Below are positions 1,534 to 34,806 of a stretch of DNA of 34,806 nucleotides, piece after piece; within the stretch, counting starts at the first letter, position 1, and every line of letters begins with the position of its first letter. The position numbers and the translations under genes were made by a program. A model generated the notes under the pieces. It made no database searches, was not told the DNA's origin, and worked only from the letters and a program-made list of their open reading frames with translations. Source of the stretch: a virus (Duplodnaviria > Heunggongvirae > Uroviricota > Caudoviricetes); the IMG/VR virus record IMGVR_UViG_2695420763_000013, one strand, 5' to 3'.

Positions 1534-1597
1534 ACGCGTAATACAATGAAATAAAAGGATTTATTTCTGGTCACGTCCACACATTGACCACATCGAC

Positions 1598-1624: not shown

Positions 1625-1634
1625 CCATTTGTAA

Positions 1635-1853: not shown

Positions 1854-1933
1854 CGCGAGCACCTCTTCCGGTTTTGTTGATGGTGCCATTTTAGTTAATT
1901 TATCCTTATAAAACAAACAGATAAAACAAAACA

Positions 1934-8889: not shown

Positions 8890-8956
8890 GATGGATCCCC
8901 TGAATAAAAACCGGGGATGATGCCAGTTAGCCGTAATCTCTGCATTTTCTTAAACG

Positions 8957-8971
8957 TTGGTTTGGGAGAAG
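8957..8971 (+). other. Putative invertase crossover-site core, copy 1 (TTGGTTTGGGAGAAG)
   Basis: Identical 15-mer at 10579..10593 (same orientation) and 12416..12430 (inverted); in each copy it encodes G-L-G-E at the junction between constant and variable tail-fibre parts. Confidence 0.55.
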
Positions 8972-9318: not shown

Positions 9319-9321
9319 TAA

Positions 9322-10315: not shown

Positions 10316-10576
10316 TATGCAGCCCTCACAATATAGTTAAAAGCGACATTTCGTGGGCGTGTTTCATTCGCACCAGCAGGTTTAGTCGTTGCCGCAACAA
10401 CACCACCCTCTGTAATAGCCGGGTTGGGAATTGGGTAATTATCGAAGTCAATGGCCGGAGACAGGGGCGTGATTTGTTTTAAAATCGTGGTGCCTGTAAA
10501 ACTTTCCAGAGTCTGGTCGTTAGTTCGTGAAGTCCAGATTCCCCAATAGTGGTTATGACTGACAATCGCACCGTCC
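10315..10576 (-). pseudogene. Truncated copy of tail-fibre cassette B C-terminus (lacks N-terminal part and crossover site)
   Basis: Exact reverse complement of 10811..11072; the repeat identity ends at 10576, so this copy has no in-frame crossover core or start. Confidence 0.5.
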
Positions 10577-10578
10577 TA

Positions 10579-10593
10579 TTGGTTTGGGAGAAG
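10579..10593 (+). other. Putative invertase crossover-site core, copy 2
   Basis: TTGGTTTGGGAGAAG at the start of cassette B, 2 bp after the end of the left repeat arm. Confidence 0.55.
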
Positions 10594-11072
10594 GCTCTGC
10601 ATTACCTGTTGGTGTCCCTGTTCCGTGGCCTTCAGCCACTCCGCCGACAGGCTGGATGAAATGCAACGGTGCGGCTTTTTCTGCTGAAGAATACCCGGAA
10701 CTGGCAAAGGCTTACCCGACAAATAAATTGCCTGATTTACGCGGTGAGTTTATTCGTGGCTGGGATGACGGACGTGGAGTGGATAACGGAAGGGGATTAT
10801 TAACGCTTCAGGACGGTGCGATTGTCAGTCATAACCACTATTGGGGAATCTGGACTTCACGAACTAACGACCAGACTCTGGAAAGTTTTACAGGCACCAC
10901 GATTTTAAAACAAATCACGCCCCTGTCTCCGGCCATTGACTTCGATAATTACCCAATTCCCAACCCGGCTATTACAGAGGGTGGTGTTGTTGCGGCAACG
11001 ACTAAACCTGCTGGTGCGAATGAAACACGCCCACGAAATGTCGCTTTTAACTATATTGTGAGGGCTGCATAA
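10581..11072 (+). CDS. Alternative tail-fibre C-terminal cassette B (receptor-binding tip), promoterless in this orientation
   Basis: Begins in frame inside the crossover core (GLGEGSALPVGVPVPWP...). The pattern GW-KCNGA, LPDLRGEFIRGWDDGRG and C-terminal RP-NVAFNYI is typical of Mu S/P1 S-type variable tail-fibre tips. The ORF-track start at 10584 is a TTG. Confidence 0.6.
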   Translation, partial: GLGEGSALPVGVPVPWPSATPPTGWMKCNGAAFSAEEYPELAKAYPTNKLPDLRGEFIRGWDDGRGVDNGRGLLTLQDGAIVSHNHYWGIWTSRTNDQTLESFTGTTILKQITPLSPAIDFDNYPIPNPAITEGGVVAATTKPAGANETRPRNVAFNYIVRAA

Positions 11073-11674
11073 TGAATAACGCAGAATTAAACAGTGAATT
11101 AATTGCCACTATGGCAGGAGAAATTACTGTTTATAACTTTGATGTCATGAGTCGGGAATATATTTCAGCTTCAACTGAATATCTTGCTATTGGTGTCGGC
11201 ATTCCGGCATATTCCTGTTTAGATGCCCCAGGCGCATACAAAGCTGGTTATGCAATCTGCCGATCTGCAGATTTTAACTCATGGGAATATGTGCCAGACC
11301 ATCGCGGTGAAATCGTCTTTAGCACCGAAACAGGAGAATCAAAAGAAATCACAGTTCCGGGTGATTACCCTGATAATACAACCACTATCGCCCCGTTAAC
11401 GCCATACGATAAATGGGATGGTGAGAAATGGGTGACGGATACCGAGGCACAGCATAGCGCCGCAGTAGACGCGGCAGAAGCACAACGTCAGTCACTGATT
11501 GATACTGCAATGGCTTCCATTAGTCTGATTCAACTGAAATTGCAGGCCGGACGGAAGTTGACGCAGGCAGAAACAACCCGACTTAACGCCGTGCTGGATT
11601 ACATTGACGCGGTGACGGTAACAGATACCAGCACCGCGCCGGATATCATCTGGCCTGAACTGCCGGAGGCGTAG
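11072..11674 (+). CDS. Tail fibre assembly chaperone for cassette B (Tfa family)
   Basis: 200 aa; ATG overlaps the cassette B stop; Tfa-type C-terminus. Confidence 0.75.
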   Translation: MNNAELNSELIATMAGEITVYNFDVMSREYISASTEYLAIGVGIPAYSCLDAPGAYKAGYAICRSADFNSWEYVPDHRGEIVFSTETGESKEITVPGDYPDNTTTIAPLTPYDKWDGEKWVTDTEAQHSAAVDAAEAQRQSLIDTAMASISLIQLKLQAGRKLTQAETTRLNAVLDYIDAVTVTDTSTAPDIIWPELPEA

Positions 11675-12065
11675 GCCATTCAATATCTGGCGCACTGGAA
11701 GTATCGACCAGCTCCAGTGCGTCCAGATAATCCAGCCACAAATTATATTGCGCCAGTTCCTCACCTTTCAGACGACCAATAGCCGCTTTACCAGGCCATT
11801 GCCTGCTGTTCATGTGCTCGTTGGCTTCATTAATAAGTTTTCCTTTTTTCAACTCTACCAATGCAATAAGGTTTTCTTTTGATAAAGGTGGTTGCTCTGT
11901 CAAAACCGGATATCCCTCCTGATTGCTGACTATTTTCATGCCATTATCCTGACCATCCAGTAGTGATAGCCATTCATCCGTGGTTATCTCAACAGCATCT
12001 GAAGGTGCTTTATTTAAATCGGTAAAAAAACCATTTTCTTTTTGTGAATAGAAGTATCTGTCCAT
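11646..12065 (-). CDS. Tail fibre assembly chaperone for the current H variant (P2 G-like)
   Basis: 139 aa directly downstream of H on the same strand; Tfa-type C-terminus. Confidence 0.75.
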   Translation of the reverse strand: MDRYFYSQKENGFFTDLNKAPSDAVEITTDEWLSLLDGQDNGMKIVSNQEGYPVLTEQPPLSKENLIALVELKKGKLINEANEHMNSRQWPGKAAIGRLKGEELAQYNLWLDYLDALELVDTSSAPDIEWPTPPAVQAR

Positions 12066-12068
12066 TTA

Positions 12069-13256
12069 TCAATCTCCAAAAGCAATCCAGTAAGCAAAAG
12101 GATTTATTCCTTGCTCAGTCACAGATGACATCAGGGAAAATTGCGATGGTGAAACAGGTAATGCTGCAAAACTAACCATTGTTGACACACCTGACCGTGC
12201 ATTATCGTACGATGCAACAACACAATAATTGGTATTGCTGAAAGATATCGGCAGGGTGATATTTACAGGTGAGCCTAATGGCCCTGATGCTGATATTCCC
12301 ATTTGAATGATGGTTCCATCAGGCAATTTTCTCCAGCGATTAGAACTCGGATTTCTTTTCCAGGCTGACATATCCGGTATCTGATTTTCTCCTGTACCCA
12401 CATCCCTTTTCGCCGCTTCTCCCAAACCAAGGTATGCGAGAAGACCAGCTACATCCTTTCCACTCAAATGAGTCAGCGTCTCATCCAGTGGCTGCTTACC
12501 TGACAGCGCATTGTTAATGGTGGCGCTGAATTTCGGGTCATTGTTAATGGCTGCGGCAATTTCTTTCAGTGTGTCCAGCGTGGCTGGCGCGCCGTTAATC
12601 AGAGCGGTAATAGCAGCCTGTACAAACGCAGTGGTCGCAATCCGCGTGGTGTTATTTCCTGCATCAGGCGTCGGCGCTTTTGGTTCTCCGGTAAATGTCG
12701 GATTATGTTTCTGTGCATACTGGGTATGAGGATCCTGTGCGGCAATGTGGTTTCTCATCTGGTCATCCACATACAGCCTTAATTCCAGGACTTCATCATC
12801 CACGTATTTACGGGTCGCCAGTACCACCGACGGGTCGATTTTCAGCGTGATGGCTTCGGTATTCGTGACAACCAGAATCATGCGGATAGTCTGGGTACGA
12901 CCACTGCCTTCCTGTAACTGCGGTTTGTACGTTTCCGGGCAGTTCGCCACCGCAATGAGTACGCCTTCATCATCATAAAGCCCAATCTCACGGATCCAGA
13001 ATCCGCCCTCGTTCTCAGGGATGATTTGCTCCGCAATAATCTGGCTCTGGTTATTCGGGTCAACACTCAGAAGATTCAGCGGCGCGATGCGTTTCTGGTT
13101 AATAAGTTTTGTCTGTGCCGGGTCTGGTGTCGGCAAGACACCATTTGCATCACCAACGGCCATTTGCGTCAGATTCAGCTTACTGCCGAGCATCGTCGCG
13201 TTAGCCAGCCGTGCCGCGCCCTGATTAGTCAGAATGGCGTAGTATTTCACTGTCAT
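12069..13256 (-). CDS. H: Tail fibre protein H (constant N-terminal part fused to variable cassette A)
   Basis: 395 aa. The N-terminus resembles P2 gpH (MAVGD...GGFW.RE.GLYDD.G.LIAVAN....YKP...EGSGR). The C-terminal ~120 aa begins at the inverted crossover core 12416..12430. Confidence 0.85.
   Translation of the reverse strand: MTVKYYAILTNQGAARLANATMLGSKLNLTQMAVGDANGVLPTPDPAQTKLINQKRIAPLNLLSVDPNNQSQIIAEQIIPENEGGFWIREIGLYDDEGVLIAVANCPETYKPQLQEGSGRTQTIRMILVVTNTEAITLKIDPSVVLATRKYVDDEVLELRLYVDDQMRNHIAAQDPHTQYAQKHNPTFTGEPKAPTPDAGNNTTRIATTAFVQAAITALINGAPATLDTLKEIAAAINNDPKFSATINNALSGKQPLDETLTHLSGKDVAGLLAYLGLGEAAKRDVGTGENQIPDMSAWKRNPSSNRWRKLPDGTIIQMGISASGPLGSPVNITLPISFSNTNYCVVASYDNARSGVSTMVSFAALPVSPSQFSLMSSVTEQGINPFAYWIAFGD
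12416..12430 (-). other. Putative invertase crossover-site core, copy 3 (inverted, inside H)
   Basis: Reverse complement of TTGGTTTGGGAGAAG; encodes G-L-G-E in H. Confidence 0.55.
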
Positions 13257-22189: not shown

Positions 22190-23962
22190 ATGACCATCAC
22201 CACAGACACCACTCTTTTACACGACCCGCGTCGTCAGGCGGCGCTGCTGTACTGGCAGGGGTTTTCCGTGCCGCAGATTGCCGCCATGTTGCAGATGAAA
22301 CGCCCGACGGTGCAGAGCTGGAAACAGCGCGACGGCTGGGACAACGTTGCCCCCATCAGCCGTGTCGAAATGAGCCTGGAAGCGCGGCTGACCCAGCTCA
22401 TCATCAAACCGCAGAAAACCGGCGGTGACTTCAAGGAAATTGACCTGCTGGGACGCCAGATTGAACGACTGGCACGGGTAAATCGTTACAGCCAGACCGG
22501 CAACGAGGCAGACCTTAATCCGAACGTCGCTAACCGCAACAAAGGCGGGCGGCGCAAACCGAAAAAAAATTTTTTCAGCGACGAGGCCATCGAAAAGCTG
22601 GAGCAGATTTTCTTTGAGCAGTCTTTCGACTATCAGTTGCACTGGTATCGCGCCGGGCTTGAGCACCGCATCCGCGATATCCTGAAATCCCGCCAGATTG
22701 GCGCGACGTTTTATTTTTCCCGCGAGGCCCTGCTGCGCGCCCTGAAAACCGGTCATAACCAGATTTTTCTGTCGGCCAGTAAAACGCAGGCGTATGTGTT
22801 CCGCGAATACATCATCGCCTTTGCCCGTCTGGTTGACGTTGACCTGACCGGTGACCCGATTGTCCTGGGCAATAACGGCGCAAAACTGATTTTTCTCGGC
22901 ACCAACTCCAACACCGCACAGAGCCATAACGGTGACCTGTACGTCGACGAGATTTTCTGGATCCCGAATTTTCAGGTACTGCGTAAGGTGGCATCAGGTA
23001 TGGCCTCACAGAGTCACCTGCGCTCGACCTATTTCTCCACCCCGTCCACGCTGGCGCACGACGCCTACCCGTTCTGGTCGGGTGAACTGTTCAACCGGGG
23101 TCGCGCCAGCGCCGCCGAACGCGTGGAAATCGACGTCAGTCATAACGCCCTTGCCGGAGGTCTTCTCTGTGCGGACGGCCAGTGGCGGCAGATTGTCACC
23201 ATTGAGGACGCGCTGAAAGGCGGCTGCACGCTGTTCGACATTGAGCAGCTCAAACGTGAAAACAGCGCCGACGATTTTAAAAACCTGTTCATGTGTGAAT
23301 TTGTTGACGACAAGGCGTCGGTGTTCCCGTTCGAGGAGCTGCAACGCTGCATGGTCGACACGCTGGAAGAATGGGAAGACTATGCGCCGTTTGCCGCGAA
23401 TCCGTTCGGCTCCCGACCGGTATGGATTGGTTACGACCCGTCACACCGTGGCGACAGCGCTGGATGCGTGGTACTGGCACCGCCGGTGGTGGCCGGTGGC
23501 AAATTCAGAATACTTGAGCGTCACCAGTGGAAAGGCATGGACTTTGCCACTCAGGCTGAATCCATCCGCAAACTCACCGAAAAATACAACGTCGAATACA
23601 TCGGAATTGATGCCACCGGCCTCGGTGTCGGCGTGTTCCAGCTCGTGCGCTCGTTCTATCCCGCCGCGCGCGATATCCGCTACACGCCGGAAATGAAAAC
23701 CGCAATGGTGCTCAAGGCAAAAGACGTTATCCGCCGTGGCTGTCTGGAATATGACGTCAGCGCCACCGACATCACCAGCTCGTTTATGGCTATCCGCAAG
23801 ACCATGACCAGCAGCGGACGCAGCGCCACCTATGAGGCCAGCCGCAGCGAGGAAGCCAGCCACGCCGACCTCGCCTGGGCGACCATGCACGCCCTGTTAA
23901 ATGAGCCACTCACCGCCGGTATCAGCACCCCGCTGACATCCACCATTCTGGAGTTTTACTGA
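22190..23962 (+). CDS. P: Terminase large (ATPase) subunit P
   Basis: 590-aa product from the ATG at 22190 (MTITTDTTLL) preceded by GAGG, the P2 gpP length. Confidence 0.9.
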   Translation: MTITTDTTLLHDPRRQAALLYWQGFSVPQIAAMLQMKRPTVQSWKQRDGWDNVAPISRVEMSLEARLTQLIIKPQKTGGDFKEIDLLGRQIERLARVNRYSQTGNEADLNPNVANRNKGGRRKPKKNFFSDEAIEKLEQIFFEQSFDYQLHWYRAGLEHRIRDILKSRQIGATFYFSREALLRALKTGHNQIFLSASKTQAYVFREYIIAFARLVDVDLTGDPIVLGNNGAKLIFLGTNSNTAQSHNGDLYVDEIFWIPNFQVLRKVASGMASQSHLRSTYFSTPSTLAHDAYPFWSGELFNRGRASAAERVEIDVSHNALAGGLLCADGQWRQIVTIEDALKGGCTLFDIEQLKRENSADDFKNLFMCEFVDDKASVFPFEELQRCMVDTLEEWEDYAPFAANPFGSRPVWIGYDPSHRGDSAGCVVLAPPVVAGGKFRILERHQWKGMDFATQAESIRKLTEKYNVEYIGIDATGLGVGVFQLVRSFYPAARDIRYTPEMKTAMVLKAKDVIRRGCLEYDVSATDITSSFMAIRKTMTSSGRSATYEASRSEEASHADLAWATMHALLNEPLTAGISTPLTSTILEFY

Positions 23963-24996
23963 TGAGCAAGAAAAAAGGGAAAACACCGCAACCTGCGGCA
24001 AAAAAAATGACCGCCAGCGCCCCGAAAATGGAGGCATTCACCTTTGGTGAGCCGGTGCCGGTACTCGACCGCCGTGACATTCTGGATTACGTCGAATGCA
24101 TCAGTAACGGCAGATGGTATGAGCCACCAATCAGCTTTACCGGTCTGGCAAAAAGCCTGCGTGCTGCCGTGCATCACAGCTCACCGATTTACGTCAAACG
24201 CAATATTCTGGCCTCGACATTTATCCCGCACCCGTGGCTTTCCCAGCAGGATTTCAGCCGCTTTGTGCTGGATTTTCTGGTGTTCGGTAATGCGTTTCTG
24301 GAAAAGCGATACAGCACCACCGGTAAGGTCATCAGACTGGAAACCTCACCGGCAAAATATACCCGCCGTGGTGTGGCAGAGGATGTTTACTGGTGGGTGC
24401 CGTCCTTCAACGAGCCGACACCTTTCACGCCCGGCTCCGTGTTTCACCTGCTGGAGCCGGATATTAATCAGGAGCTGTACGGCCTGCCGGAATATCTCAG
24501 CGCCCTTAACTCTGCCTGGCTGAATGAGTCGGCCACGTTGTTCCGCCGCAAGTATTACGAAAACGGCGCACATGCCGGATACATCATGTACGTCACTGAT
24601 GCCGTGCAGGATCGCAACGATATCGAAATGCTCCGCGAAAACATGGTGAAGTCGAAAGGCCGCAACAACTTTAAAAATCTGTTTCTCTATGCCCCACAGG
24701 GGAAAGCCGACGGCATTAAAATTATCCCGCTCAGTGAAGTCGCAACGAAGGACGATTTTTTTAATATCAAAAAAGCCAGCGCCGCTGACCTGCTGGACGC
24801 GCACCGCATCCCCTTTCAGTTGATGGGAGGCAAGCCGGAGAACGTCGGGTCGCTGGGCGATATTGAGAAAGTGGCAAAGGTCTTTGTCCGCAATGAGCTT
24901 ATCCCGTTACAGGACAGGATTCGGGAAATAAACGGCTGGCTCGGTCAGGAGGTCATCCGCTTTAAAAACTACTCACTGGACACTGACAACGGCTGA
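23962..24996 (+). CDS. Q: Portal protein Q
   Basis: 344 aa, the P2 gpQ length; start overlaps the P stop. Confidence 0.9.
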   Translation: MSKKKGKTPQPAAKKMTASAPKMEAFTFGEPVPVLDRRDILDYVECISNGRWYEPPISFTGLAKSLRAAVHHSSPIYVKRNILASTFIPHPWLSQQDFSRFVLDFLVFGNAFLEKRYSTTGKVIRLETSPAKYTRRGVAEDVYWWVPSFNEPTPFTPGSVFHLLEPDINQELYGLPEYLSALNSAWLNESATLFRRKYYENGAHAGYIMYVTDAVQDRNDIEMLRENMVKSKGRNNFKNLFLYAPQGKADGIKIIPLSEVATKDDFFNIKKASAADLLDAHRIPFQLMGGKPENVGSLGDIEKVAKVFVRNELIPLQDRIREINGWLGQEVIRFKNYSLDTDNG

Positions 24997-25001
24997 ACAT
25001 C

Positions 25002-25024
25002 GCCGCCTGCGGGCGGCTTTTTTA
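25002..25024 (+). terminator. Rho-independent terminator after Q
   Basis: Hairpin GCCGCC-TGCG-GGCGGC followed by TTTTTT, starting 6 nt after the Q stop. Confidence 0.6.
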
Positions 25025-25164
25025 CACCCCGCCATCACGCCCTCACACGCTCATCACCGCACAAAAAATCCCGCAGACACACCAACGCCCAGCAGGCCAA
25101 GTAAACGCCTTCACGACGCTCTCAGACGCTGAAAAAATAAAATCAGCACCACCGCCAGCGCGCA

Positions 25165-25183
25165 GTGCTTTCCCCGCCTCGCC
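25165..25183. other. cos: cos site (19-nt cohesive-end sequence)
   Basis: GTGCTTTCCCCGCCTCGCC is the reverse complement of the remembered P2 cohesive end GGCGAGGCGGGGAAAGCAC; sits between Q and the cargo, as cos does in P2. Confidence 0.6.
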
Positions 25184-25340
25184 CGCCCGCTTCGTGGGGC
25201 GGTTTTAATGCAGGTGTAAATTCAGTCTAAATACATACCTGTCGGGTCATCAAGCTTGTGCGCTCACTCAATAAAACACATGCAAATAAATGCATATAGA
25301 CATGTGCTACCAACTTGCACTAGCCATGTACATCAGGTAA

Positions 25341-27173
25341 TTAACAACGTAATTCTGTACAATTAGCCCATTCTTCAGAAAAAACAGCATCTGAAGATTT
25401 TGGCCCTGGCCTTGCTTGATTAATTGAAATTCTTACAGGCAAATTAAATGCAGAACCAAATGCAACAGCATCACCTCTTGGTAAACCTGATATTTGTTTT
25501 AAGATTTGTTCATTACCGCTTTCCATTGCATATCTGAGAGCCTGTAAATCTCTTTCATTAGTCAAACGTAACGAAAACCAGTTTGAACACATTGCCAAAA
25601 CAGTAGGAGAAAGCTCTGAGGGTCGCTGAGTACTGACAATTAAAGAGCATTTGAATTTCCTACCTTCTTTAGCAAGTCGTTCATATGCTTTAATCTGTGA
25701 GTCAATTTCAGCATAAGGGTCACGCAGGTAATGATGCGCTTCTTCCAACAAAAGTACCGTAGGATACGAACGTTCCTGCCCACGTCTAAATAGTATCTCA
25801 GCAAACATCTCCAACAATGCACTAAGTAACATTGGAGCATGATCTTGTGCCAAATTTTTCATATTAACTATATGAACATTCCAATCATTTTCTTGTCCTT
25901 TTTCCTTACCAAAGAAGTAATCAACTTCATCACTCATAGCTTTATCCCAATGCGTTCCACCATCTGCTAGCTCACCCCCTCCATTTAAATTAACAATAGA
26001 TTTAAATCTTATATCCTCTGCAAGTTGTTGTATGATTTTTACCAATGGCAACACGTTACTAAAACCAAACGCGTCACGTTTACTTCCATTAGAACGGTCA
26101 GCAGCTACACATCCAAATTCAGCAACCAAAGTCGCTAAACTTTTAAACGGTGGCCATACATTCGTTCTTTTAAGACGTCTACGCCTTAATAAATCCAACC
26201 ACTCAGCCAATTTACTTTGATTTGTGTCACGACAATCATCATACAAAAGAAAAGTTTCACCATCATCTTTTTCCAAGTAAATATTACGGCTTTTAAAATG
26301 AGTCCGATTAATTGCACTTAATGCATTTCTTAATGCGGGCAATTGTGTTTTATCACTTGGTCTTAATAATTTAATTAACCCAGCAAAACCTAATGCCTGA
26401 TATGGTATCTTTTTATAACAATAATACTCTTCACTATATAGCTCACCCTTTTGCTGCTTTTTTTCCAAACTATCAACATTTGGGGATTCCCCTAGAATAG
26501 TGTGCTTTACATTTGGAATACCTGTAAAAGCTTGCGCGTATTCACCATTTATGTCAAAAATAACTATTCTTGAGTTAGGGTATTTTTCAGAAACCTTCCT
26601 CGTTAACAAAGCATTGAAATTTGATTTACCATATCCTGTACTACCAAGAACGGCTAAGTGTCGCGACAATAATTTATCAACACTTGCAAATATCTTAACG
26701 GTTTTAGTTCGAGAATCCACACCTAATTCAACCGCTTTTGGGAGTTCTTCTTTATCAATACTATAAATGATGTTCAAAAAATCTGAAGTCAAAGGAACAG
26801 CAGAAGAACCCAATGCAGGTAAGCGCCAATCTTCTGATATAAAAACATAACCATTTAACTCCCTTTTCACAAAGCCAATTGCATAGGCGATAATTTGTCT
26901 TAGAGGTATATCAGCTAAATCAGATGTGCCTACATTTGCCTTATGCGCTTTATCCGCTTCAACAAATGCCATATCTGTCACTCTTGCGACAACTAATATA
27001 TTACCTGCATCGAACCCAATAAGATCTCCTGGTTGCGTTACTGAGCTCACCCCCTTTCTATGCGATGCTAATCTGCCTTGCAACCCCTCATGCAGGTTTA
27101 TCCTAATTCTTTCCCCTTCTAATCCTACAACGTATCCAATAGCCGAGATTTCAGTAAGTTTAAAAAGGGACAT
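25341..27173 (-). CDS. HerA-like ATPase/helicase (defence cargo, gene 2 of 2)
   Basis: 610-aa product from the ATG at 27171..27173, preceded by AAAGGAG 6 nt upstream. Walker A GSTGYGKS (about residue 183), Walker B-like VLLLEEAHHY, and an IVSTQRPSEL motif typical of HerA/FtsK-type ATPases. AT-rich. The ORF-track start at 27224 is a TTG. Confidence 0.85.
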   Translation of the reverse strand: MSLFKLTEISAIGYVVGLEGERIRINLHEGLQGRLASHRKGVSSVTQPGDLIGFDAGNILVVARVTDMAFVEADKAHKANVGTSDLADIPLRQIIAYAIGFVKRELNGYVFISEDWRLPALGSSAVPLTSDFLNIIYSIDKEELPKAVELGVDSRTKTVKIFASVDKLLSRHLAVLGSTGYGKSNFNALLTRKVSEKYPNSRIVIFDINGEYAQAFTGIPNVKHTILGESPNVDSLEKKQQKGELYSEEYYCYKKIPYQALGFAGLIKLLRPSDKTQLPALRNALSAINRTHFKSRNIYLEKDDGETFLLYDDCRDTNQSKLAEWLDLLRRRRLKRTNVWPPFKSLATLVAEFGCVAADRSNGSKRDAFGFSNVLPLVKIIQQLAEDIRFKSIVNLNGGGELADGGTHWDKAMSDEVDYFFGKEKGQENDWNVHIVNMKNLAQDHAPMLLSALLEMFAEILFRRGQERSYPTVLLLEEAHHYLRDPYAEIDSQIKAYERLAKEGRKFKCSLIVSTQRPSELSPTVLAMCSNWFSLRLTNERDLQALRYAMESGNEQILKQISGLPRGDAVAFGSAFNLPVRISINQARPGPKSSDAVFSEEWANCTELRC

Positions 27174-28413
27174 TACCTTCTCCTTTAGAAAGATTAGCAA
27201 TTGCTTCAACCAACTCATCAACAATATTATCTCGTGGAAAGAGCACAGGGTATGGTAGATGTTCTACGAAACTATTAAAATATGCCTTGCTTCCTCCCCC
27301 AACTACAGTTACTTGATTGAAAGCCATATTTTTTAAAGTAACAATAGCTTTCTCAGCTTCCGAACCGCCACCCTTACTTACTTTGGTAATTGCTTCTTTC
27401 AATTCAGGATAATATATAACAACATGGAAAGATGGATTCAGTAACGCGCCTAATATTATTCTATTTATATGATAATCACCGAAACCAAACCCATTTATGA
27501 ACAACGCTGTTTGAGGTTTCGAAATAAACTCCCCAAAACGTCTAAACATCTCTCCATAAACGAAGCCGATTGTATGGCTATATTTATTCGCCCCTGGATA
27601 AATCAAATGTTGACCGCGATAAAAGTCATCTTTATTGATTATGTCATTAATATATTCATCATATGCTTGAGATGCACTAACTTCGTTAACAGTCAAGCTA
27701 TCATTTTGATACCACGTAAGTGAGCCATGTAATTTATAGAGATACGCATGATAATGTCCGAATCTTGCTTCGCCCTTCGCATTTACATTTCTGAAAGCCA
27801 AATCAAAATTCTGGGGATAAAACTGCCGTGTATGTAGCCCAGAAAAACCATTAAACAACTGTATTCCTAAATCTTCTGCAGCCCACTCTAAGGCCAAATC
27901 ATAATTTGTTGTAAAAATTGCCGGAGCCGACTGACCGGGCTGTCTATTTGAAATTAATTTTGAAATTAACTCTTTGTGATATTTAAACGCATCTTTTTTA
28001 CCCTGATTTTTCTCTCTAAACTGTTCTCCTGTTAATAATGCAGCCTTCGTAACCTCTTTATATAATGAACTTAATATCTTCCTGAATTCCTCCTCTTCAT
28101 CTTCACATCGTCTAGTTTTAGCTACAGAAAGAAATTTAGTTGCTTCATCTATCAAAAGTTCAACATTGACCAAATTGTTATCAGAATCAATTTGCGAAAC
28201 CAGAAGATATTTATCAATAAGTGCTCCCAAAAGCTCAGGGTAGTTTTGCTTAAACGATTTCCATACATCTTTCATCGTTTTCCCACCACAACCGACAGAA
28301 GCACCAGCACCTAACAGAACGCCAACATTATCTAATTGACACAAGGAATAAACGTGAGAACGAAAATCATCCTCATTTAACTTGTTACCACCTTGATAAA
28401 TCGACATAAACAT
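27160..28413 (-). CDS. SIR2-like (sirtuin-fold) NAD-binding protein (defence cargo, gene 1 of 2)
   Basis: 417 aa. Glycine-rich GAGAS(V)GCGG near the N-terminus, TTNYD motif (Asn about 170) and KLHGS motif (His about 229), as in prokaryotic defence SIR2 domains. A second ATG at 28405..28407 has better SD spacing, so the true start may be 2 codons in. Confidence 0.85.
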   Translation of the reverse strand: MFMSIYQGGNKLNEDDFRSHVYSLCQLDNVGVLLGAGASVGCGGKTMKDVWKSFKQNYPELLGALIDKYLLVSQIDSDNNLVNVELLIDEATKFLSVAKTRRCEDEEEEFRKILSSLYKEVTKAALLTGEQFREKNQGKKDAFKYHKELISKLISNRQPGQSAPAIFTTNYDLALEWAAEDLGIQLFNGFSGLHTRQFYPQNFDLAFRNVNAKGEARFGHYHAYLYKLHGSLTWYQNDSLTVNEVSASQAYDEYINDIINKDDFYRGQHLIYPGANKYSHTIGFVYGEMFRRFGEFISKPQTALFINGFGFGDYHINRIILGALLNPSFHVVIYYPELKEAITKVSKGGGSEAEKAIVTLKNMAFNQVTVVGGGSKAYFNSFVEHLPYPVLFPRDNIVDELVEAIANLSKGEGNVPF

Positions 28414-28448
28414 CCTTTTACAAATTTTAAAATTAGCTAAGTTACTAC

Positions 28449-28477
28449 ATTAAAAATCAAATATTAGAAAAAGTCAT
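28449..28477 (-). promoter_or_regulatory. Candidate sigma70 promoter for the SIR2/HerA operon
   Basis: Minus strand reads ATGACT-17 nt-TTTAAT in a 115-bp AT-rich intergenic region upstream of the SIR2 start. Hand-matched hexamers only. Confidence 0.25.
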
Positions 28478-28528
28478 TACTCATAATCACACAATAGATT
28501 CATATGGTTAGCATAGTCACAATAGCTA

Positions 28529-30652
28529 TCATTGTTGATTATCAGCATCCTGTACATTGAAAATCGCGGTTGACTCGCCAACTATGCCTGCTCGTGTGTC
28601 TCCTTTGTTTGTACATTTACGTGATGCTTCTATTTTCAATGCCAGATTAAGCACTTTCAAGACCTCCGGGTCATTCCATTCGATAACACCGTCATCTACC
28701 AGATTAAGCACTGCTGCGGCGTGCTCAGAAGGTGTGGGAGCCGGTAACGAAGTATCACCACCGGTGAGCTTTCCACAGTTATTGACAGGACTCCGAGGCG
28801 CGGCGATGCCGCTTTTTAAAGTTAAAGGCTCCACGACCGGAACTTTCGGAACAATGCGCCAGTCCGTCGTTCTGGTGATATGAATATGACGCGCGCCGAG
28901 ATGCGGCGCGTAAATGCCGACCACTCTCTCGACTTCTTCCTCGTACTCGTTAACTTCATCCGACGGGCTACGGGCGACTCTGACAGTCTGGCAATCGCGC
29001 GGAACATTTGCCCCACCCTGCGCACTGATATACAACGCAAAATCGCCACTGTCTGCGGCAGCGCGTGCAGCCTCGACGCGTTCGTCAAACTCATCAGCTA
29101 TGCTGACGCCGCGAGGCAATTTGCGTAGTTCACGGTAAGCCCCCATTGTCGGCAGACCAACCGTTTTAAATTGCGGGATGCGCCACGTTGACGCCCATGC
29201 AGTAACAGCCGCGGCAGTATCTTTCAGAGGTCTGCCGGTATCGTTATCGAGCTGACCATCCAGTGCATAGCCGTCGATATTTTTTGAAATGTATTTCGCG
29301 ATATACCCCGCAGCACCGCCCCGATTAAGATGTTTTGCCTGAAAACGGTTTCGCGCAGCTCCTCTTTCGTCGCCATCCTCTTTGAGCGCGTAGCGACGCA
29401 TGATTTCGATAATCTGGTTACGCTGGCGTGGATTACAAAAAAGCATCATATGCCAGTGCGGCGTTCCGTCGTGGTGTGGCTCGACGACTCGCAAACCGTA
29501 GACCTGTAAATCATTATCCTTGAATGCCGTGCGCATCAGGCTCCAGATACGGCAGAGATAACGCTGCGCATCCTTTGGATTAAATGCCTCATCGTTCCAG
29601 CCGTGATTTAGCTGGACGGTTTTACTTTCGCCTTTTCCAACCTGACGTGTCGGGTGATACTTTGACGGCGCGGTCAGCGTGATAAACATCCCCACATCAC
29701 CTTCTGCGGCGGCGTAACGCTCAATACCGGCAATGGTGTTCATCAGCTCCATCCGGCGAATTTCAGGATTAGAAATACTGCCCATCACCTTACTGATAAG
29801 GTCGATGCGCTCGCCTGTTTCCCTGTTTTCGAGATCACACGATTTAAGAAATTCCAGATTTGCCTGGCGGCGTGCACGCACATCACGAATGGCATGTTTA
29901 CTGGCATAAGGAGAACGGTCTTTATTGACCTCCCCGACAGCAATCAGTAACGCCTCATGCCAGCGCATACGCTGGCCTTTAAGCTGACTAATCCACCACT
30001 CATCGTTAAACAGACGGGCAATGGCAGAATATGCCTGCCTCGTGGTCATCTGTCCTTTACGGTATTTTTTCCAGTAGAGAGGGGAAATATTGAAAGCACG
30101 TGCAGCGCCAGCAACATGACCATACAGATGCGCCTGAGCCTCATCCGTAAACAGCGATTCTTTCTCGCCATGTGCATCAACCCATGCATCGCAGAGTTCC
30201 TCATACATCATGAAAAGCTGCGATGAGATACGGGCGGCAAACTTTTTCAGTTCCTTGTCATTCATCCCCGGCAGACGCGCATAATGGTCACGCTCTGCCA
30301 GAAACAGCAACGACGCGTCGGTGTTCATTTCATGGCGCTGATTCACGCGCTCAATGCGCGGCCATAAACGACGCTGAAAAGTGGATGTGAGGAAATAAAA
30401 CCCGTGCACCGGGCTTTTATTGCGCCGGATGTAGTCATAGCGTGAAGTAAACAGCGAGCGCAAAAAGTAAGGCAGGCGGTTAATCGTGGATAAAACACCT
30501 TGCACCTGACGCATCTCGTCACGTGTAAGGGGTCTTTCGCGCCCGACAGCCTCGCGTGGCGCGTTCCATGCATAAGCACCGGTAAACGCCTTACCGGTGC
30601 CTGCGGCAAATGCTGATGGAGGGACAAAACGCCCGGAGGCTTTAACGGCCAT
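28529..30652 (-). CDS. A: Replication initiation protein A (rolling-circle HUH nickase)
   Basis: HUH-like HWHMMLF and a two-tyrosine GYIAKYISK motif typical of superfamily rolling-circle initiators. Start set at the ATG 30650..30652 (MAVKASGRF) from memory of the P2 gpA N-terminus; the ORF track extends to 30694. Confidence 0.8.
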   Translation of the reverse strand: MAVKASGRFVPPSAFAAGTGKAFTGAYAWNAPREAVGRERPLTRDEMRQVQGVLSTINRLPYFLRSLFTSRYDYIRRNKSPVHGFYFLTSTFQRRLWPRIERVNQRHEMNTDASLLFLAERDHYARLPGMNDKELKKFAARISSQLFMMYEELCDAWVDAHGEKESLFTDEAQAHLYGHVAGAARAFNISPLYWKKYRKGQMTTRQAYSAIARLFNDEWWISQLKGQRMRWHEALLIAVGEVNKDRSPYASKHAIRDVRARRQANLEFLKSCDLENRETGERIDLISKVMGSISNPEIRRMELMNTIAGIERYAAAEGDVGMFITLTAPSKYHPTRQVGKGESKTVQLNHGWNDEAFNPKDAQRYLCRIWSLMRTAFKDNDLQVYGLRVVEPHHDGTPHWHMMLFCNPRQRNQIIEIMRRYALKEDGDERGAARNRFQAKHLNRGGAAGYIAKYISKNIDGYALDGQLDNDTGRPLKDTAAAVTAWASTWRIPQFKTVGLPTMGAYRELRKLPRGVSIADEFDERVEAARAAADSGDFALYISAQGGANVPRDCQTVRVARSPSDEVNEYEEEVERVVGIYAPHLGARHIHITRTTDWRIVPKVPVVEPLTLKSGIAAPRSPVNNCGKLTGGDTSLPAPTPSEHAAAVLNLVDDGVIEWNDPEVLKVLNLALKIEASRKCTNKGDTRAGIVGESTAIFNVQDADNQQ

Positions 30653-30917: not shown

Positions 30918-31138
30918 GCCGTTCTCCGGTAATGTTTGTTTTTTGCTTCAAAGACTGACTGACAGGAAACACAACGCGTGGCTGACGGATAAGCCGCACG
31001 ACGGGCAGCAGGTATTGGCACGTCACACTCTTCGCAAACCAGCGCAGAAACACCGCAATGTTTTACCCTTGCCGCGTTAATCTGGCGCTCCAGTAATTCA
31101 GCCTGTTGTTCCTGAATGAAATCTACGTTGTCCGGCAT
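30914..31138 (-). CDS. DksA/TraR-type C4 zinc-finger protein (P2 orf82 position)
   Basis: 74 aa with CxxC-(17)-CxxC (CEECDVPIP...RCVSCQ). Confidence 0.6.
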   Translation of the reverse strand: MPDNVDFIQEQQAELLERQINAARVKHCGVSALVCEECDVPIPAARRAAYPSATRCVSCQSVFEAKNKHYRRTA

Positions 31139-31443
31139 TACCAGTTCCTTTTGTCGTTCAGTTTCTTAAATTCATCAGCGCAATAGCTGACGATTTCTGT
31201 CGTTAATTTTGTCAGTTCATCCACGGAGGAAATTTGCTTGTGGAATACAGCGCGTTTAACAAGTAAATTGACCACATCAGACAGGAGGTTTAATTCATTC
31301 TGATAAATCGCGATAACAGATTCAGTTATGTCGCGTTTTTCTTTATCAAGACAAAGTTGAATAAGAGATAAATCACCATTTTCCATAACGGCGATTTTTA
31401 AGGCGTTATTCAGTAATACAACTGAATGAGAACAGGACATCAA
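31138..31443 (-). CDS. Early-region small protein (P2 orf81 position)
   Basis: 101-aa ORF in a tightly overlapping same-strand series. Confidence 0.5.
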
Positions 31444-31664
31444 AGCACCTCCCCGCGAGACAATCCGATATTGTGAAATTTTTCCGACTCCTGACTGAGC
31501 AGCTCGACTATCTCCACGCGGGATAACTCCGCCTTTGTGATATGGCGAATCATGGCGTCAAGATGAGAAGAAAAGCGCGTCGCAGCGTCGGCCTGTGCTT
31601 CGGTTCTGGCCTGTTGCAGCAGTAATGCGTATTTACCGCACTGATTTTCAGAAACTGTATGCAT
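31440..31664 (-). CDS. Early-region small protein (P2 orf80 position)
   Basis: 74-aa ORF with 4-nt overlap to the next gene. Confidence 0.5.
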
Positions 31665-31727
31665 GACTTTCTCCAGGCAAAAAGAAGCCCCGCACGATTA
31701 AGTGCGTTAAAAACTCTGGTTAATTAT

Positions 31728-32234
31728 TTAATGCAGATATTGCTCTGGTTTTACCGACGTCAGAATTGTCGGTGCATACTCAAACAGACTGAATAATTCA
31801 CGTAATGCACGGAATAAAGCATCACGCCAGTAACATGATTCTTCATTAATTCGCCAGTACGGCTGGTTGAATTCTTTTTCTGTCAGTCGTGCGTGCATAA
31901 ATAAAGTACGTCGCTGGCTGACTGTTAAAAAACTAATATATGCATACTCACTTGCACCGACCTGACGGCGTTTTGAGAATGCCCCACGCAATTCATCAAT
32001 TGCACAAACCAGCCGTTCACGTTCGACGTCGTTCATTTCTTCAAAACGCATCGTTGCGTGACGCTGTTTTAACTGTGCATGAAAGCAAACCGTTAGCCGT
32101 TCGCGCTCCATCATCTGATTATAATAATCACATGTATCCTGCCAGCGAGGGACGGCAAGATGCTTGCCAATTATCCGGCGCATAGCTGCTGGCTGTTTTT
32201 CAACGAGATTGAGCGTCATCACTGTCATTTCCAT
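31728..32234 (-). CDS. B: Putative replication protein B (helicase loader)
   Basis: 168 aa at the P2 gene B position between cox and A. Call based on position and size only. Confidence 0.55.
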   Translation of the reverse strand: MEMTVMTLNLVEKQPAAMRRIIGKHLAVPRWQDTCDYYNQMMERERLTVCFHAQLKQRHATMRFEEMNDVERERLVCAIDELRGAFSKRRQVGASEYAYISFLTVSQRRTLFMHARLTEKEFNQPYWRINEESCYWRDALFRALRELFSLFEYAPTILTSVKPEQYLH

Positions 32235-32419
32235 ACCCTCCGGCTTTTCAGAAAGGTCAGAGCCTTTTTTAACGGACTCTGTTTTTTGGTGCGGATAATG
32301 ATTCCCTTACGCCCCTTACCGTGGGTGATGGTGAAGTCAATCGCCCTGGGGCTTTCGTTACGCAGTAACTGAGCAATACAACGAGGCTCATTCATACGGT
32401 TCTCCTTAACGTGGTTCAC
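32225..32419 (-). CDS. Small early protein (P2 orf78 position)
   Basis: 64-aa ORF, possibly starting at the internal Met MNEPRCIAQ; overlaps the cox stop. Confidence 0.4.
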   Translation of the reverse strand: MNHVKENRMNEPRCIAQLLRNESPRAIDFTITHGKGRKGIIIRTKKQSPLKKALTFLKSRRVWK

Positions 32420-32681
32420 CGAGACCTAACCACATCAACCAGCCGTCACGAATCTCTTTAGGGCGGCTTTCATAAGCCAGTTTTAGTCCGTTATTCCATG
32501 CCGGAAGGTATACCCAATATTCACCTGCACGACCTGAAGCTGATTGTGGATCGGTCATATCAATTACAGGCAGCTTTCCTTTATCGATCATCCGACGAAC
32601 CGCTCCTGTCGATTTTCCTATTAGTTTTGCGAACTCCTGATAAGGAATCGCATCAGTCATGAGTGTTACTTGCTTGCTCAT
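32406..32681 (-). CDS. cox: Cox (excisionase and regulator of the lysis-lysogeny switch)
   Basis: 91 aa (MSKQVTLMTDAIPYQEFAKLIGKSTGAVRRMIDKGKLPVID...), the P2 Cox length; divergent from C. Confidence 0.85.
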   Translation of the reverse strand: MSKQVTLMTDAIPYQEFAKLIGKSTGAVRRMIDKGKLPVIDMTDPQSASGRAGEYWVYLPAWNNGLKLAYESRPKEIRDGWLMWLGLGEPR

Positions 32682-32795
32682 GTCGTCCTCTAGCCCTCAT
32701 GAATTGCGTTTAATGTCTTATAATGCCTTTTAGTGCCCACATCCAAGCACTAAACAATCTACATCTAAACTAAATACTATTGAGATCTAAACACC
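32682..32795. promoter_or_regulatory. C/cox switch region (Pc/Pe promoters and operators)
   Basis: 114-bp divergent intergenic region with a TATAAT hexamer at 32719..32724, an inverted repeat TTAGTGC-N11-GCACTAA at 32730..32754, and two direct TCTAAAC repeats before the C start. Confidence 0.45.
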
Positions 32796-33095
32796 ATGTC
32801 AAACACGATAAGCGAGAAGATAGTCTTAATGCGAAAATCAGAGTATTTGAGCAGACAACAACTTGCTGATTTAACAGGGGTTCCGTATGGCACGCTGAGT
32901 TACTATGAAAGTGGTCGTTCAACACCTCCAACAGATGTCATGATGAACATCCTGCAGACCCCACAATTCACCAAATACACTTTATGGTTCATGACCAATC
33001 AGATCGCTCCTGAGTCCGGGCAAATTGCGCCCGCTCTCGCACACTTTGGGCAAAACGAAACAACGTCGCCCCACTCCGGTCAAAAGACTGGTTAA
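32796..33095 (+). CDS. C: Immunity repressor C
   Basis: 99 aa, the P2 C length; HTH-like segment LSRQQLADLTGVPYGTLSYYESG. Confidence 0.85.
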   Translation: MSNTISEKIVLMRKSEYLSRQQLADLTGVPYGTLSYYESGRSTPPTDVMMNILQTPQFTKYTLWFMTNQIAPESGQIAPALAHFGQNETTSPHSGQKTG

Positions 33096-33210
33096 CAATT
33101 CATCGTGAATATATTCATCACAAGTGCCTACTATTGGTGGCTAAATTTCAGCCACCACGAAAAAAGCGATTAGTAGTCGCAAAAAAACACACCACTCGGA
33201 GGGTTTTCTG

Positions 33211-34224
33211 ATGGCAATCAAAAAACTCGATGATGGTCGATATGAAGTGGACATCCGCCCTACTGGACGTAATGGAAAACGCATCCGTAGGAAGTTTGAT
33301 AAGAAAAGCGAAGCTGTCGCTTTCGAGAAATACACGTTGTACAACCACCACAATAAAGAATGGCTATCAAAACCAACAGACAAGCGACGTCTGTCGGAGC
33401 TGACACAGATCTGGTGGGATTTAAAGGGTAAACACGAAGAGCATGGGAAATCTAATCTTGGGAAAATTGAAATCTTCACAAAAATAACGAATGACCCATG
33501 CGCATTTCAAATTACGAAATCGCTTATCAGCCAGTACTGCGCCACCCGAAGAAGTCAGGGTATTAAACCTTCGAGTATCAATCGTGATTTAACATGTATT
33601 AGCGGCATGTTTACAGCCCTGATTGAAGCGGAGTTATTCTTTGGTGAGCACCCTATCAGAGGGACAAAAAGGCTTAAGGAGGAAAAACCAGACACAGGCT
33701 ATCTCACGCAGGAAGAAATTGCCTTACTGCTTGCTGCTCTTGACGGCGACAACAAAAAGATTGCGATTCTTTGCCTGAGTACTGGAGCACGTTGGGGAGA
33801 AGCAGCTCGTTTGAAAGCAGAAAATATCATCCATAACCGCGTCACGTTTGTTAAAACGAAAACAAACAAACCACGCACCGTCCCGATCTCAGAGGCTGTT
33901 GCCAAAATGATCGCGGATAACAAACGAGGTTTTTTATTCCCTGATGCTGATTACCCTCGCTTCAGACGAACAATGAAAGCAATAAAACCGGATTTGCCAA
34001 TGGGGCAAGCTACACATGCACTAAGGCACAGCTTTGCCACTCATTTCATGATTAATGGAGGAAGTATTATCACGCTACAACGGATACTAGGTCACACGCG
34101 GATTGAGCAAACTATGGTTTACGCTCATTTTGCGCCAGAGTACCTTCAGGACGCCATTTCTCTTAATCCGCTAAGAGGTGGTACTGAGGTCGAGAGTGTC
34201 CACACAGTGTCCACAGTAGAGTAA
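33211..34224 (+). CDS. int: Tyrosine integrase
   Basis: 337 aa, the P2 Int length; catalytic-domain motifs (TGARWGE, HALRHSFATH, LGHT-IEQTMVYAH with the terminal Tyr); directly precedes attR. Confidence 0.9.
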   Translation: MAIKKLDDGRYEVDIRPTGRNGKRIRRKFDKKSEAVAFEKYTLYNHHNKEWLSKPTDKRRLSELTQIWWDLKGKHEEHGKSNLGKIEIFTKITNDPCAFQITKSLISQYCATRRSQGIKPSSINRDLTCISGMFTALIEAELFFGEHPIRGTKRLKEEKPDTGYLTQEEIALLLAALDGDNKKIAILCLSTGARWGEAARLKAENIIHNRVTFVKTKTNKPRTVPISEAVAKMIADNKRGFLFPDADYPRFRRTMKAIKPDLPMGQATHALRHSFATHFMINGGSIITLQRILGHTRIEQTMVYAHFAPEYLQDAISLNPLRGGTEVESVHTVSTVE

Positions 34225-34303
34225 CGTTTAAGGGCTTTCAGTGGTAATTTATGCCGCTCAAACCCGCATTGTACCGTTGAAAGCCCCTACTGGTGACACC
34301 CTA

Positions 34304-34330
34304 AATCTCCCTTACACGGGCTTATTTTTT
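34304..34330. other. attR: Prophage attR core (exact P2 att 27-mer)
   Basis: AATCTCCCTTACACGGGCTTATTTTTT, the reverse complement of the remembered P2 attP core; 80 bp downstream of the int stop. Confidence 0.75.
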
Positions 34331-34488
34331 ATGCATAAGCCCTATCCCTGGTCACCGTCTTCCATTGACCACATCGATAGAATCTCCCTTCATAGCACGA
34401 TGCCTTTCACGTAACGGCATCGTGCTCGCACAGGTTCCGGCTACGCACAGCCAGAACGCGCATATTTGACGCTTACCAAAAAATATTC

Positions 34489-34806
34489 TCACTCTCCACA
34501 TTTGAATGTCAGACGAGCGACGCCATGTAATCCTGCACCTTCTGTCTTCAGGTCAACTATCTGCATTTTTTTGCCCTGAGTAACACAGAAATGGGCTGCA
34601 TCATTTTTTACTATATTTTCTGCACCAGATATTCTACCCCTGGCTAAAGAAGCTTCGGCTTCGGTGTAGTATTGGTTATCGAGTTTACGCTGAATATTAC
34701 TTTTATATGCAAGACCAAATTTACCGATACTTGTCTCATCATTATGCACAGCACAACCAGACATAATAAAAATACTAATTAATGATATAGCAGCTATCTT
34801 TTTCAT
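34489..34806 (-). CDS. yegR: Small lipoprotein YegR
   Basis: 105 aa with signal peptide and lipobox (MKKIAAISLISIFIMSGC); host flank beyond attR. Name from remembered E. coli synteny. The start codon is the last triplet of the window. Confidence 0.6.
   Translation of the reverse strand: MKKIAAISLISIFIMSGCAVHNDETSIGKFGLAYKSNIQRKLDNQYYTEAEASLARGRISGAENIVKNDAAHFCVTQGKKMQIVDLKTEGAGLHGVARLTFKCGE

What the first reader, a model, noticed from the sequence alone, without database searches (positions are those of the whole stretch)
25184..28528. Compositionally foreign cargo island bounded by cos and the 3' end of gene A
Hand-counted 60-nt stretches in 25320..28520 are roughly one-third G+C, while the surrounding phage genes are clearly GC-richer. 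The shift begins just after the cos match and ends at the A stop codon. This marks a horizontally acquired cassette swapped into a conserved backbone. The last ~40 codons of A lie near the junction and may be partly cargo-derived, which is inference.
Basis: partly seen in the sequence, partly recalled or inferred. Interest (0 to 1): 0.4.

Follow-up and report, generated by a model that had tools for sequence, protein, structure and literature searches.

The report
Known SIR2-HerA defence cassette in P2 prophage
The AT-rich block between the packaging site (cos) and the replication gene of this P2-like prophage is the already well-studied two-gene "Nezha" SIR2-HerA anti-phage system, sitting in a known swap-in hotspot for defence genes, so the finding is correct but ordinary.

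Summary
G+C is 0.365 across 25217-28649, against 0.531 for the rest of the window. Third-codon-position G+C is 0.25-0.27 in the island genes and 0.53-0.71 in the backbone genes.

The island holds one two-gene operon on the minus strand: SIR2 (27160-28407) and HerA (25341-27173), overlapping by 14 nt. [quoted passage not shown]

The locus is the known gpA-gpQ hotspot next to cos in P2-like phages. P2 itself carries tin/old there. Rousset 2022 already lists "SIR2 + HerA" as system #14 at this hotspot, with 188 loci.

Five relatives carry five different cargos between the same breakpoints. The left breakpoint is at 25212-25216, about 30 nt past cos (25165-25183). They replace about 96 canonical residues, and NCBI's annotation pipeline (PGAP) calls the gene truncated. 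The replication-origin nick site (28794) is kept, 137 nt inside the backbone.

Verdict: already known, low interest.

The parts
23962..24996 (+). gpQ portal gene: conserved left flank of the hotspot
   Evidence: Pfam Phage_portal and NCBIfam portal_PBSX, 249 bits. 95.8% DNA identity to P2 Q.
25165..25183 (.). cos: the 19-nt cohesive-end sequence
   Evidence: Exact match to the reverse complement of the cosL/cosR sequence annotated in P2 record AF063097.
25184..25212 (.). Conserved flank of cos. The backbone ends here; the left breakpoint is at 25212-25216.
   Evidence: Homology to P2, PhiR44_1, P2-O157, pro483 and pro147 stops at 25211-25216. G+C falls from 0.58 to 0.37 at about 25201.
25213..25340 (.). 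128-nt island-specific spacer downstream of HerA
   Evidence: Not alignable to relatives or to the Scandinavium locus. No further records beyond the 20 carriers, a whole-island query that needs 28-nt exact words; the spacer was not searched on its own.
25341..27173 (-). HerA-type ATPase of the Nezha Sir2-HerA system (610 aa; true start is the ATG at 27171-27173)
   Evidence: 100% identical over residues 1-610 to PDB 8j4u_M. PADLOC HerA E=2e-277. Pfam DUF87. A Shine-Dalgarno-like AAGGAG precedes the ATG.
27160..28407 (-). SIR2-family NADase of the Nezha system (415 aa; true start is the ATG at 28405-28407); overlaps HerA by 14 nt
   Evidence: 100% identical over residues 1-415 to PDB 8j4u_A. 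NCBIfam SIR2_antiphage 507 bits, cut-off 500. PADLOC SIR2 E=4e-190.
28408..28528 (.). 121-nt very AT-rich spacer (G+C 0.22-0.28); presumed promoter region of the operon
   Evidence: G+C. The promoter role is inferred only: the consensus scan found no site here above chance.
28529..28656 (-). Replaced 3' end of replication gene A: 42 codons plus stop, part of the swapped module
   Evidence: DNA homology to six relatives resumes only at 28650-28657. The protein diverges after ...VIEWNDPEV. Third-position G+C is 0.29. Present only in the 20 genomes that carry the cargo.
28657..30652 (-). Conserved core of gene A (replication initiator/nickase): right flank of the hotspot
   Evidence: Pfam Phage_GPA E=8e-124. 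96.9% DNA identity to P2 A.
28774..28814 (-). Replication-origin nick-site context (nick-equivalent base 28794), retained 137 nt inside the backbone
   Evidence: The 41 nt around the 'nick site at ori' annotated in P2 (AF063097 position 29892) are identical here.
28642..28655 (.). Copy of an exact 14-nt direct repeat (CCAGATTAAGCACT; second copy at 28699-28712) lying on the right breakpoint
   Evidence: Both copies encode VLNL in gpA.

Best explanation
The low-G+C block is a defence cassette carried in the variable locus between the packaging site (cos, next to portal gene Q) and replication gene A of a complete P2-like prophage integrated between trhP (yegQ) and yegR.

The cassette is one minus-strand operon, SIR2 then HerA, with the HerA start overlapping the SIR2 stop. 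It encodes exactly the E. coli 'Nezha' Sir2-HerA system. The published mechanism for these same proteins is as follows. [quoted passage not shown] ATP keeps the complex inhibited in healthy cells. Infection lowers ATP, the activities are released, NAD+ collapses and the infected cell stops growing before the phage completes its cycle (abortive infection). A lysogen is thereby protected against other phages, which also benefits the prophage.

The cassette reached this backbone by recombination in the conserved flanks: the cos flank on the left and the 3' part of gene A on the right, just downstream of the replication origin. The swap therefore also rewrote the C-terminus of gpA.

Shown here: identity of the proteins, the locus, the breakpoints, the composition and retention of the origin. 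Taken from the literature: the biochemistry and the anti-phage phenotype. Inferred: the recombination route, the promoter in the 121-nt spacer, and whether the shortened gpA still works.
For: Protein identity:
- SIR2 and HerA are 100% identical over full length to PDB 8j4u/8su9/8sub/8suw/8uae/8uaf.
- 8J4U is named as Nezha, and its activities and ATP gating are described, in PMC13434337.
- PDB chain counts fit a 12 SIR2: 6 HerA complex: 84 chains in 7 entries and 33 chains in 6 entries.
- Family models agree.

Locus:
- The gpA-gpQ hotspot next to cos is described in PMC9122126 and PMC13586616.
- Its table lists 'SIR2 | DUF87 = SIR2 + HerA', 188 loci, as system #14.
- Relatives share the breakpoints but carry different cargo.
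- P2's own cargo at this locus is equally AT-rich: tin 0.33, old 0.35.

Other evidence:
- The prophage gene set is complete in a near-identical genome.
- Composition and codon contrast.
- Origin retained.
- Nezha homologues give phage resistance in their natural host V. cholerae (PMC11559045).
Against: The HerA protein scores 710 bits against NCBIfam HerA_antiphage, below the curated cut-off of 800, and PGAP names it only 'ATP-binding protein'. The 100% identity to the solved Nezha HerA outweighs this.

No promoter or terminator above chance was found for the operon.

No expression or phenotype was measured here. No isolated phage in the phage collection carries this cassette, so its activity in a viable phage context is untested.
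Confidence: 0.93

Rival explanations
1. The prophage is replication-defective because gene A lost its normal C-terminus. On this view the element is a domesticated carrier of a defence system, not a live phage that swaps cargo.
For: gpA is 707 aa, against 761 aa in P2. About 96 canonical C-terminal residues are replaced by 42 unrelated ones. PGAP marks the gene 'incomplete; missing C-terminus' in three carriers. No isolated phage record carries this cassette. The copy in E. coli O18 is visibly degraded elsewhere.
Against: The catalytic Phage_GPA domain is complete (residues 147-476) and the origin nick site is identical to P2's. All other P2 genes are annotated intact in MEI2BO-21 and NCTC11129. 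Phage pro483 has a 723-aa gpA that also diverges from about the same point. The tail is 100% conserved in 18 of 20 carriers from varied hosts, although that is uninformative over so short a time.
Confidence: 0.3
2. The cassette is a recent direct import from an AT-rich bacterium, for example a Vibrio- or Shewanella-like gammaproteobacterium, into an E. coli P2 prophage.
For: Homologous SIR2-HerA pairs in Vibrio, Shewanella, Photobacterium, Marinomonas and Paraferrimonas have G+C of 0.39-0.41. That equals their own flanks, so they have native composition there, and they are not next to gpA or gpQ.
Against: Those homologues are only 56-61% identical in protein sequence. The closest non-E. coli relative (86% identity, Scandinavium lactucae) is again between gpA and cos/gpQ of a P2-like prophage. 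Its cargo DNA is as diverged (77.6%) as the backbone genes (77.0% and 75.7%). That fits long co-residence in P2-like phages.
Confidence: 0.1
3. The low G+C is a local property of the P2 backbone (mutational bias near cos) rather than a sign of exchange.
For: Every cargo examined at this locus is AT-rich, including P2's tin and old.
Against: The sequences themselves are unrelated between relatives, while the flanks are 95-97% identical. The breakpoints are sharp to within a few bases.
Confidence: 0.01

Closest known systems
Nezha / E. coli Sir2-HerA anti-phage system (PDB 8J4U, 8SU9, 8SUB, 8SUW, 8SXX, 8UAE, 8UAF)
   Same: Both proteins are 100% identical over their full length. Gene order is the same and the genes overlap.
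   Different: Nothing at the protein level. This window adds only the native genomic setting.
Defence hotspot next to cos, between gpA and gpQ, in P2-like phages (Rousset et al. 2022, PMC9122126; the P2 tin-old region)
   Same: Same flanking genes and the same position next to cos. The cargo is AT-rich and interchangeable. 'SIR2 + HerA' is listed as system #14 with 188 loci.
   Different: The representative HerA in that table is a variant, not identical. I did not find the papers I read stating that the right junction lies inside gene A, downstream of the origin; the older P2 literature could not be searched here.
Sir2-HerA of Paenibacillus sp. 453MF (PMC11472057; I recall it as the system of Gao et al. 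2020, which was not checked here) and E. coli types I-III (PMC13434337)
   Same: A two-gene SIR2 NADase plus HerA ATPase architecture with an abortive-infection outcome.
   Different: Types I-III are only about 13-22% identical to Nezha and have different phage spectra. Type III uses a nickase rather than a helicase/nuclease.
Nezha of classical-biotype Vibrio cholerae (PMC11559045)
   Same: A homologous SIR2-HerA pair. V. cholerae ATCC 14035 locus L016 is 57% (SIR2) and 61% (HerA) identical. NAD+ depletion and phage resistance were shown in the natural host.
   Different: It lies in a 25-kb chromosomal defence island between tonB and trmA, not in a P2-like prophage. Its G+C matches its surroundings.

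Membership tests
Sir2-HerA (Nezha) defence system | Adjacent, co-oriented SIR2-family and HerA-family genes forming one operon | tested here: met
   SIR2 at 27160-28407 and HerA at 25341-27173, both on the minus strand, with a 14-nt overlap.
Sir2-HerA (Nezha) defence system | The SIR2 protein reaches the curated anti-phage SIR2 model | tested here: met
   NF042942 at 507 bits, cut-off 500. PADLOC PDLC02186 E=4e-190.
Sir2-HerA (Nezha) defence system | The HerA protein reaches the curated anti-phage HerA model | tested here: not met
   NF042943 at 710 bits, below the cut-off of 800. However, PADLOC HerA gives E=2e-277, and the protein is 100% identical to the solved Nezha HerA chain 8j4u_M, which settles membership.
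Sir2-HerA (Nezha) defence system | Sequence identity to the experimentally characterised complex | tested here: met
   100% identity over 415 and 610 residues. 8J4U is named as Nezha in PMC13434337.
Sir2-HerA (Nezha) defence system | NAD+ depletion and phage resistance | not testable with these tools
   Reported for Nezha in the literature. Not measured here.
P2-like phage gpA-gpQ (cos-adjacent) defence hotspot | Located between replication gene A and portal gene Q, next to cos | tested here: met
   gpQ at 23962-24996, cos at 25165-25183, gpA at 28529-30652.
P2-like phage gpA-gpQ (cos-adjacent) defence hotspot | Conserved flanks with unrelated cargo in close relatives | tested here: met
   Five relatives carry five different cargos, and the breakpoints agree to within 7 nt.
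P2-like (Peduovirus) prophage | Full P2 gene set with integrase, C/cox switch, A, Q-L capsid operon, tail genes and ogr | tested here: met
   Annotation of the 97-99% identical prophage in MEI2BO-21, between trhP and yegR.

The most novel reading that the evidence does not exclude
The part of replication gene A downstream of the origin nick site may itself belong to the swappable module. Cargo exchanges would then repeatedly rewrite the C-terminus of an essential protein (707 to about 770 aa among the relatives seen here), with the origin marking the true edge of the conserved backbone. In this lineage the rewrite removed about 96 canonical residues. That may have produced either a tolerated short gpA or a replication-dead prophage kept for its defence cassette.
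Probability: 0.3. Interest if true: 0.3.

Novelty: already known. Interest (0 to 1): 0.1.

Why it matters
The finding adds little that is new. It places the exact proteins used for the Nezha structures in their natural setting, a complete P2-like prophage between trhP and yegR, and gives base-level breakpoints for the swap.

The one point of modest interest is that the exchange boundary lies inside the essential replication gene, 137 nt beyond the origin. Annotation pipelines therefore flag gpA as a pseudogene in every carrier inspected. Anyone judging whether such prophages are alive should not rely on that flag.

Tried and rejected
- **Promoter and terminator scan of 24900-28800.** It found 11 promoter-like sites against 11.2 expected by chance, with none in the SIR2 upstream spacer. 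The operon's promoter therefore stays inferred. The terminator-like sites it found are the known tQ site after gene Q and hairpins around cos.
- **Origin of the replaced gpA tail.** I used tblastn against phages, plus short-word blastn and tblastn against the canonical tails of P2, pro483, PhiR44_1 and Scandinavium. Only the first 9-12 residues past the breakpoint (LKVLNLALKIE against VRALRGALKYD) still resemble gpA. The last ~30 codons and the spacer match nothing. MAFFT's gapped alignment to Scandinavium suggested a deleted canonical tail, but BLAST did not support it (E>0.1).
- **Literature on the P2 origin.** Three searches or look-ups failed or returned nothing useful. The P2 GenBank record supplied the nick site instead.
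- **Flanking repeats or att/dif-like sites at both island borders.** Only the 14-nt repeat at the right junction stood out. Nothing is shared between the left and right borders.
- **Cassette in isolated phages.** None found.
- **'Bacillota MAG' contig L007 as a possible donor.** Rejected, because it carries the E. coli P2 gpA tail and gpQ at 98.5-100% identity (SIR2 99.5%, HerA 99.2%) and is most likely mis-binned.
Full report
**Observation.** The composition shift is real and large.
- In 500-nt windows, G+C is 0.33-0.39 between 25501 and 28500 and 0.50-0.61 on both sides.
- Over 25217-28649 it is 0.365, against 0.531 for the rest of the window.
- No 500-nt window inside the block exceeds 0.40. 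Windows outside it average 0.531 (sd 0.054).
- The next-lowest 3.4-kb stretch in the window is 0.447.
- Third-codon-position G+C separates the two gene sets cleanly: SIR2 0.27 and HerA 0.25, against gpA core 0.53, gpQ 0.65 and gpP 0.71.
P2's 19-nt cohesive end lies at 25165-25183.

**What is in the block.** Two minus-strand genes fill it.
- The upstream gene (27160-28407, 415 aa) matches PADLOC SIR2 (E=4e-190), NCBIfam SIR2_antiphage (507 bits, cut-off 500) and Pfam SIR2_2.
- The downstream gene (25341-27173, 610 aa) matches PADLOC HerA (E=2e-277) and Pfam DUF87. It scores 710 bits against NCBIfam HerA_antiphage, below that model's cut-off of 800.
- Both proteins are 100% identical, end to end, to chains of PDB 8j4u, 8su9, 8sub, 8suw, 8uae and 8uaf. 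This also fixes the true start codons at the third and eighteenth codons of the mechanical ORFs.
- The SIR2 stop (TAA, 27160-27162) lies 14 nt inside HerA, whose ATG follows an AAGGAG Shine-Dalgarno-like sequence. This is a typical coupled operon.
- A 2026 paper names PDB 8J4U as the 'Nezha' Sir2-HerA system (PMC13434337).

**How it works (from the literature, for these same proteins).** Nezha is a multi-enzyme abortive-infection system.
- ATP inhibits these activities. ATP falls during infection, the block is relieved, NAD+ is depleted and the infected cell stops growing (PMC13434337).
- PDB chain counts fit twelve SIR2 subunits per six HerA subunits: 84 SIR2 chains in 7 entries and 33 HerA chains in 6 entries. 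The Paenibacillus homologue has this architecture (PMC11472057 abstract).
- In classical-biotype V. cholerae a homologous Nezha protects against phages ICP1-3 in its natural host. Both the SIR2 active site and HerA are needed (PMC11559045).

**Where it sits.** The window is a whole P2-like prophage between the host genes trhP (yegQ, 1-1362) and yegR.
- The block lies between portal gene Q (23962-24996) plus cos on one side and replication gene A (28529-30652) on the other.
- This is the defence hotspot next to cos that Rousset et al. 2022 described for P2-like phages. P2 itself has tin and old there (PMC9122126; P2 record). A 2026 survey revisited it (PMC13586616).
- Rousset's table of P2-hotspot systems lists 'SIR2 | DUF87', 188 loci, annotated 'SIR2 + HerA (Gao et al., 2020)', as system #14. 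Its representative HerA is a close variant of the window's.

So both the cargo and its location are already catalogued.

**Breakpoints.**
- Megablast against the phage collection finds 94 records that match only the flanks; none covers more than 49% of the query.
- Five relatives were compared directly: P2 (tin/old), PhiR44_1 (ParaMORC3+Dcm), the O157:H43 P2-like phage (cdtABC), pro483 (a DUF4238 gene) and pro147 (retron-type reverse transcriptases). All are 95-97% identical to the window up to 25211-25216 on the left and from 28650-28657 on the right.
- The variable segment is therefore 25213-28656, about 3.44 kb.
- On the left, the backbone keeps 29-33 nt beyond the cohesive end.
- On the right, the junction is inside gene A.

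**The tail of gene A.**
- The window's gpA follows relatives up to ...VIEWNDPEV and then diverges.
- Its last 42 codons (28532-28656) replace about 96 residues of P2 gpA, giving 707 aa against 761 aa.
- These codons have cargo-like third-position G+C (0.29).
- In a sensitive search they occur in exactly 20 of 5,426 complete E. coli genomes. These are the same 20 accessions that carry the cassette.
- Only the first 9-12 residues after the DNA breakpoint still resemble gpA. The rest, and the 121-nt spacer before SIR2, match nothing.
- PGAP marks gpA 'incomplete; missing C-terminus' in all three carriers inspected.
- The P2 record places the origin nick site inside gene A (position 29892). The 41 nt around it are identical at window 28774-28814. 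The origin is therefore retained, 137 nt from the junction.
- pro483's gpA also departs from the canonical sequence at nearly the same point (28650). Its tail resembles that of a Scandinavium P2-like phage. This suggests recurrent crossovers in this stretch of A between diverged P2-like phages.
- Whether the shortened gpA still works cannot be decided here.

**Origin of the cassette.**
- Only 20 of 5,426 complete E. coli genomes carry it. In each it is single-copy, chromosomal and at least 99.5% identical.
- The closest relative outside E. coli (86% protein identity, Scandinavium lactucae) is again between gpA and cos/gpQ of a P2-like prophage. There the cargo DNA is as diverged (77.6%) as A (77.0%) and Q (75.7%). 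The cassette has probably travelled with P2-like phages for a long time while staying AT-rich.
- More distant homologues (56-61% identity) in Vibrio, Shewanella, Photobacterium, Marinomonas and Paraferrimonas have G+C of 0.39-0.41. That equals their surroundings, and they are not in P2-like elements. This is compatible with an ultimate origin in AT-rich gammaproteobacteria but identifies no donor.
- P2's own cargo is equally AT-rich (tin 0.33, old 0.35). Low G+C is the rule at this locus.

**Verdict.** The feature is a textbook instance of a published hotspot carrying a published, structurally solved defence system. Novelty: already known. Interest: low. The only mildly new points are that the junction lies inside A just beyond the origin, and the resulting 'pseudogene' flag on gpA.

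Noticed in passing
window 8945-10577 and 10810-12442 (centre 10578-10809); invertase gene 8296-8889 (-): A perfect 1,633-nt inverted repeat (100% complementary) lies in the tail-fibre region next to a resolvase/invertase gene. In strain LR9-2 the same prophage type has a single 1,855-nt invertible segment with two alternative tail-fibre ends and their assembly genes. The window holds that segment once complete, in the flipped orientation, plus a partial copy in the other orientation. The two are joined at 10577/10578, which is not the ~18-nt crossover site. No complete E. coli genome has that junction. The likely cause is an assembly chimera of the two switch states, or else a rare inverted duplication.
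   Followed up: partly
window 28642-28655 and 28699-28712: An exact 14-nt direct repeat (CCAGATTAAGCACT), spaced 57 nt apart. One copy lies exactly on the right exchange breakpoint, and both encode VLNL in gpA. By my own rough arithmetic, about 0.001 such repeats within 100 nt are expected by chance. It may be a recombination footprint.
   Followed up: partly
L004 (pro147) 1524-3418; L008 (Scandinavium) 9673-10878: Some relatives carry extra cargo on the other side of cos, between gpQ and cos. pro147 has a retron Ec48-type effector plus a reverse transcriptase there, and Scandinavium has a 401-aa ORF. The window has no insert there.
   Followed up: no
L007 (JAEYGZ010000011.1, 'MAG: Bacillota bacterium'): This 7-kb contig labelled Bacillota carries this E. 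coli P2-type gpA tail, SIR2-HerA and gpQ at 98.5-100% protein identity. It is almost certainly a mis-binned or contaminating contig.
   Followed up: partly
L005, L006 and L018 (E. coli NCTC11129, O18, MEI2BO-21): PGAP annotates gpA as a pseudogene ('missing C-terminus') in every carrier inspected. It names HerA only 'ATP-binding protein', because the protein falls below the NCBIfam cut-off.
   Followed up: yes
L006 (E. coli O18) 1825-2816: This copy of the prophage is degraded: partial baseplate J and GPO capsid-scaffold genes are fused and the head and tail genes between them are missing. It still keeps intact SIR2-HerA.
   Followed up: no
window 31001-34500: The early and immunity end of the prophage (orf80-83 homologues, cox, C repressor, integrase) is also below the window's average G+C, at 0.42-0.48. 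The dip is much milder than in the island.
   Followed up: no
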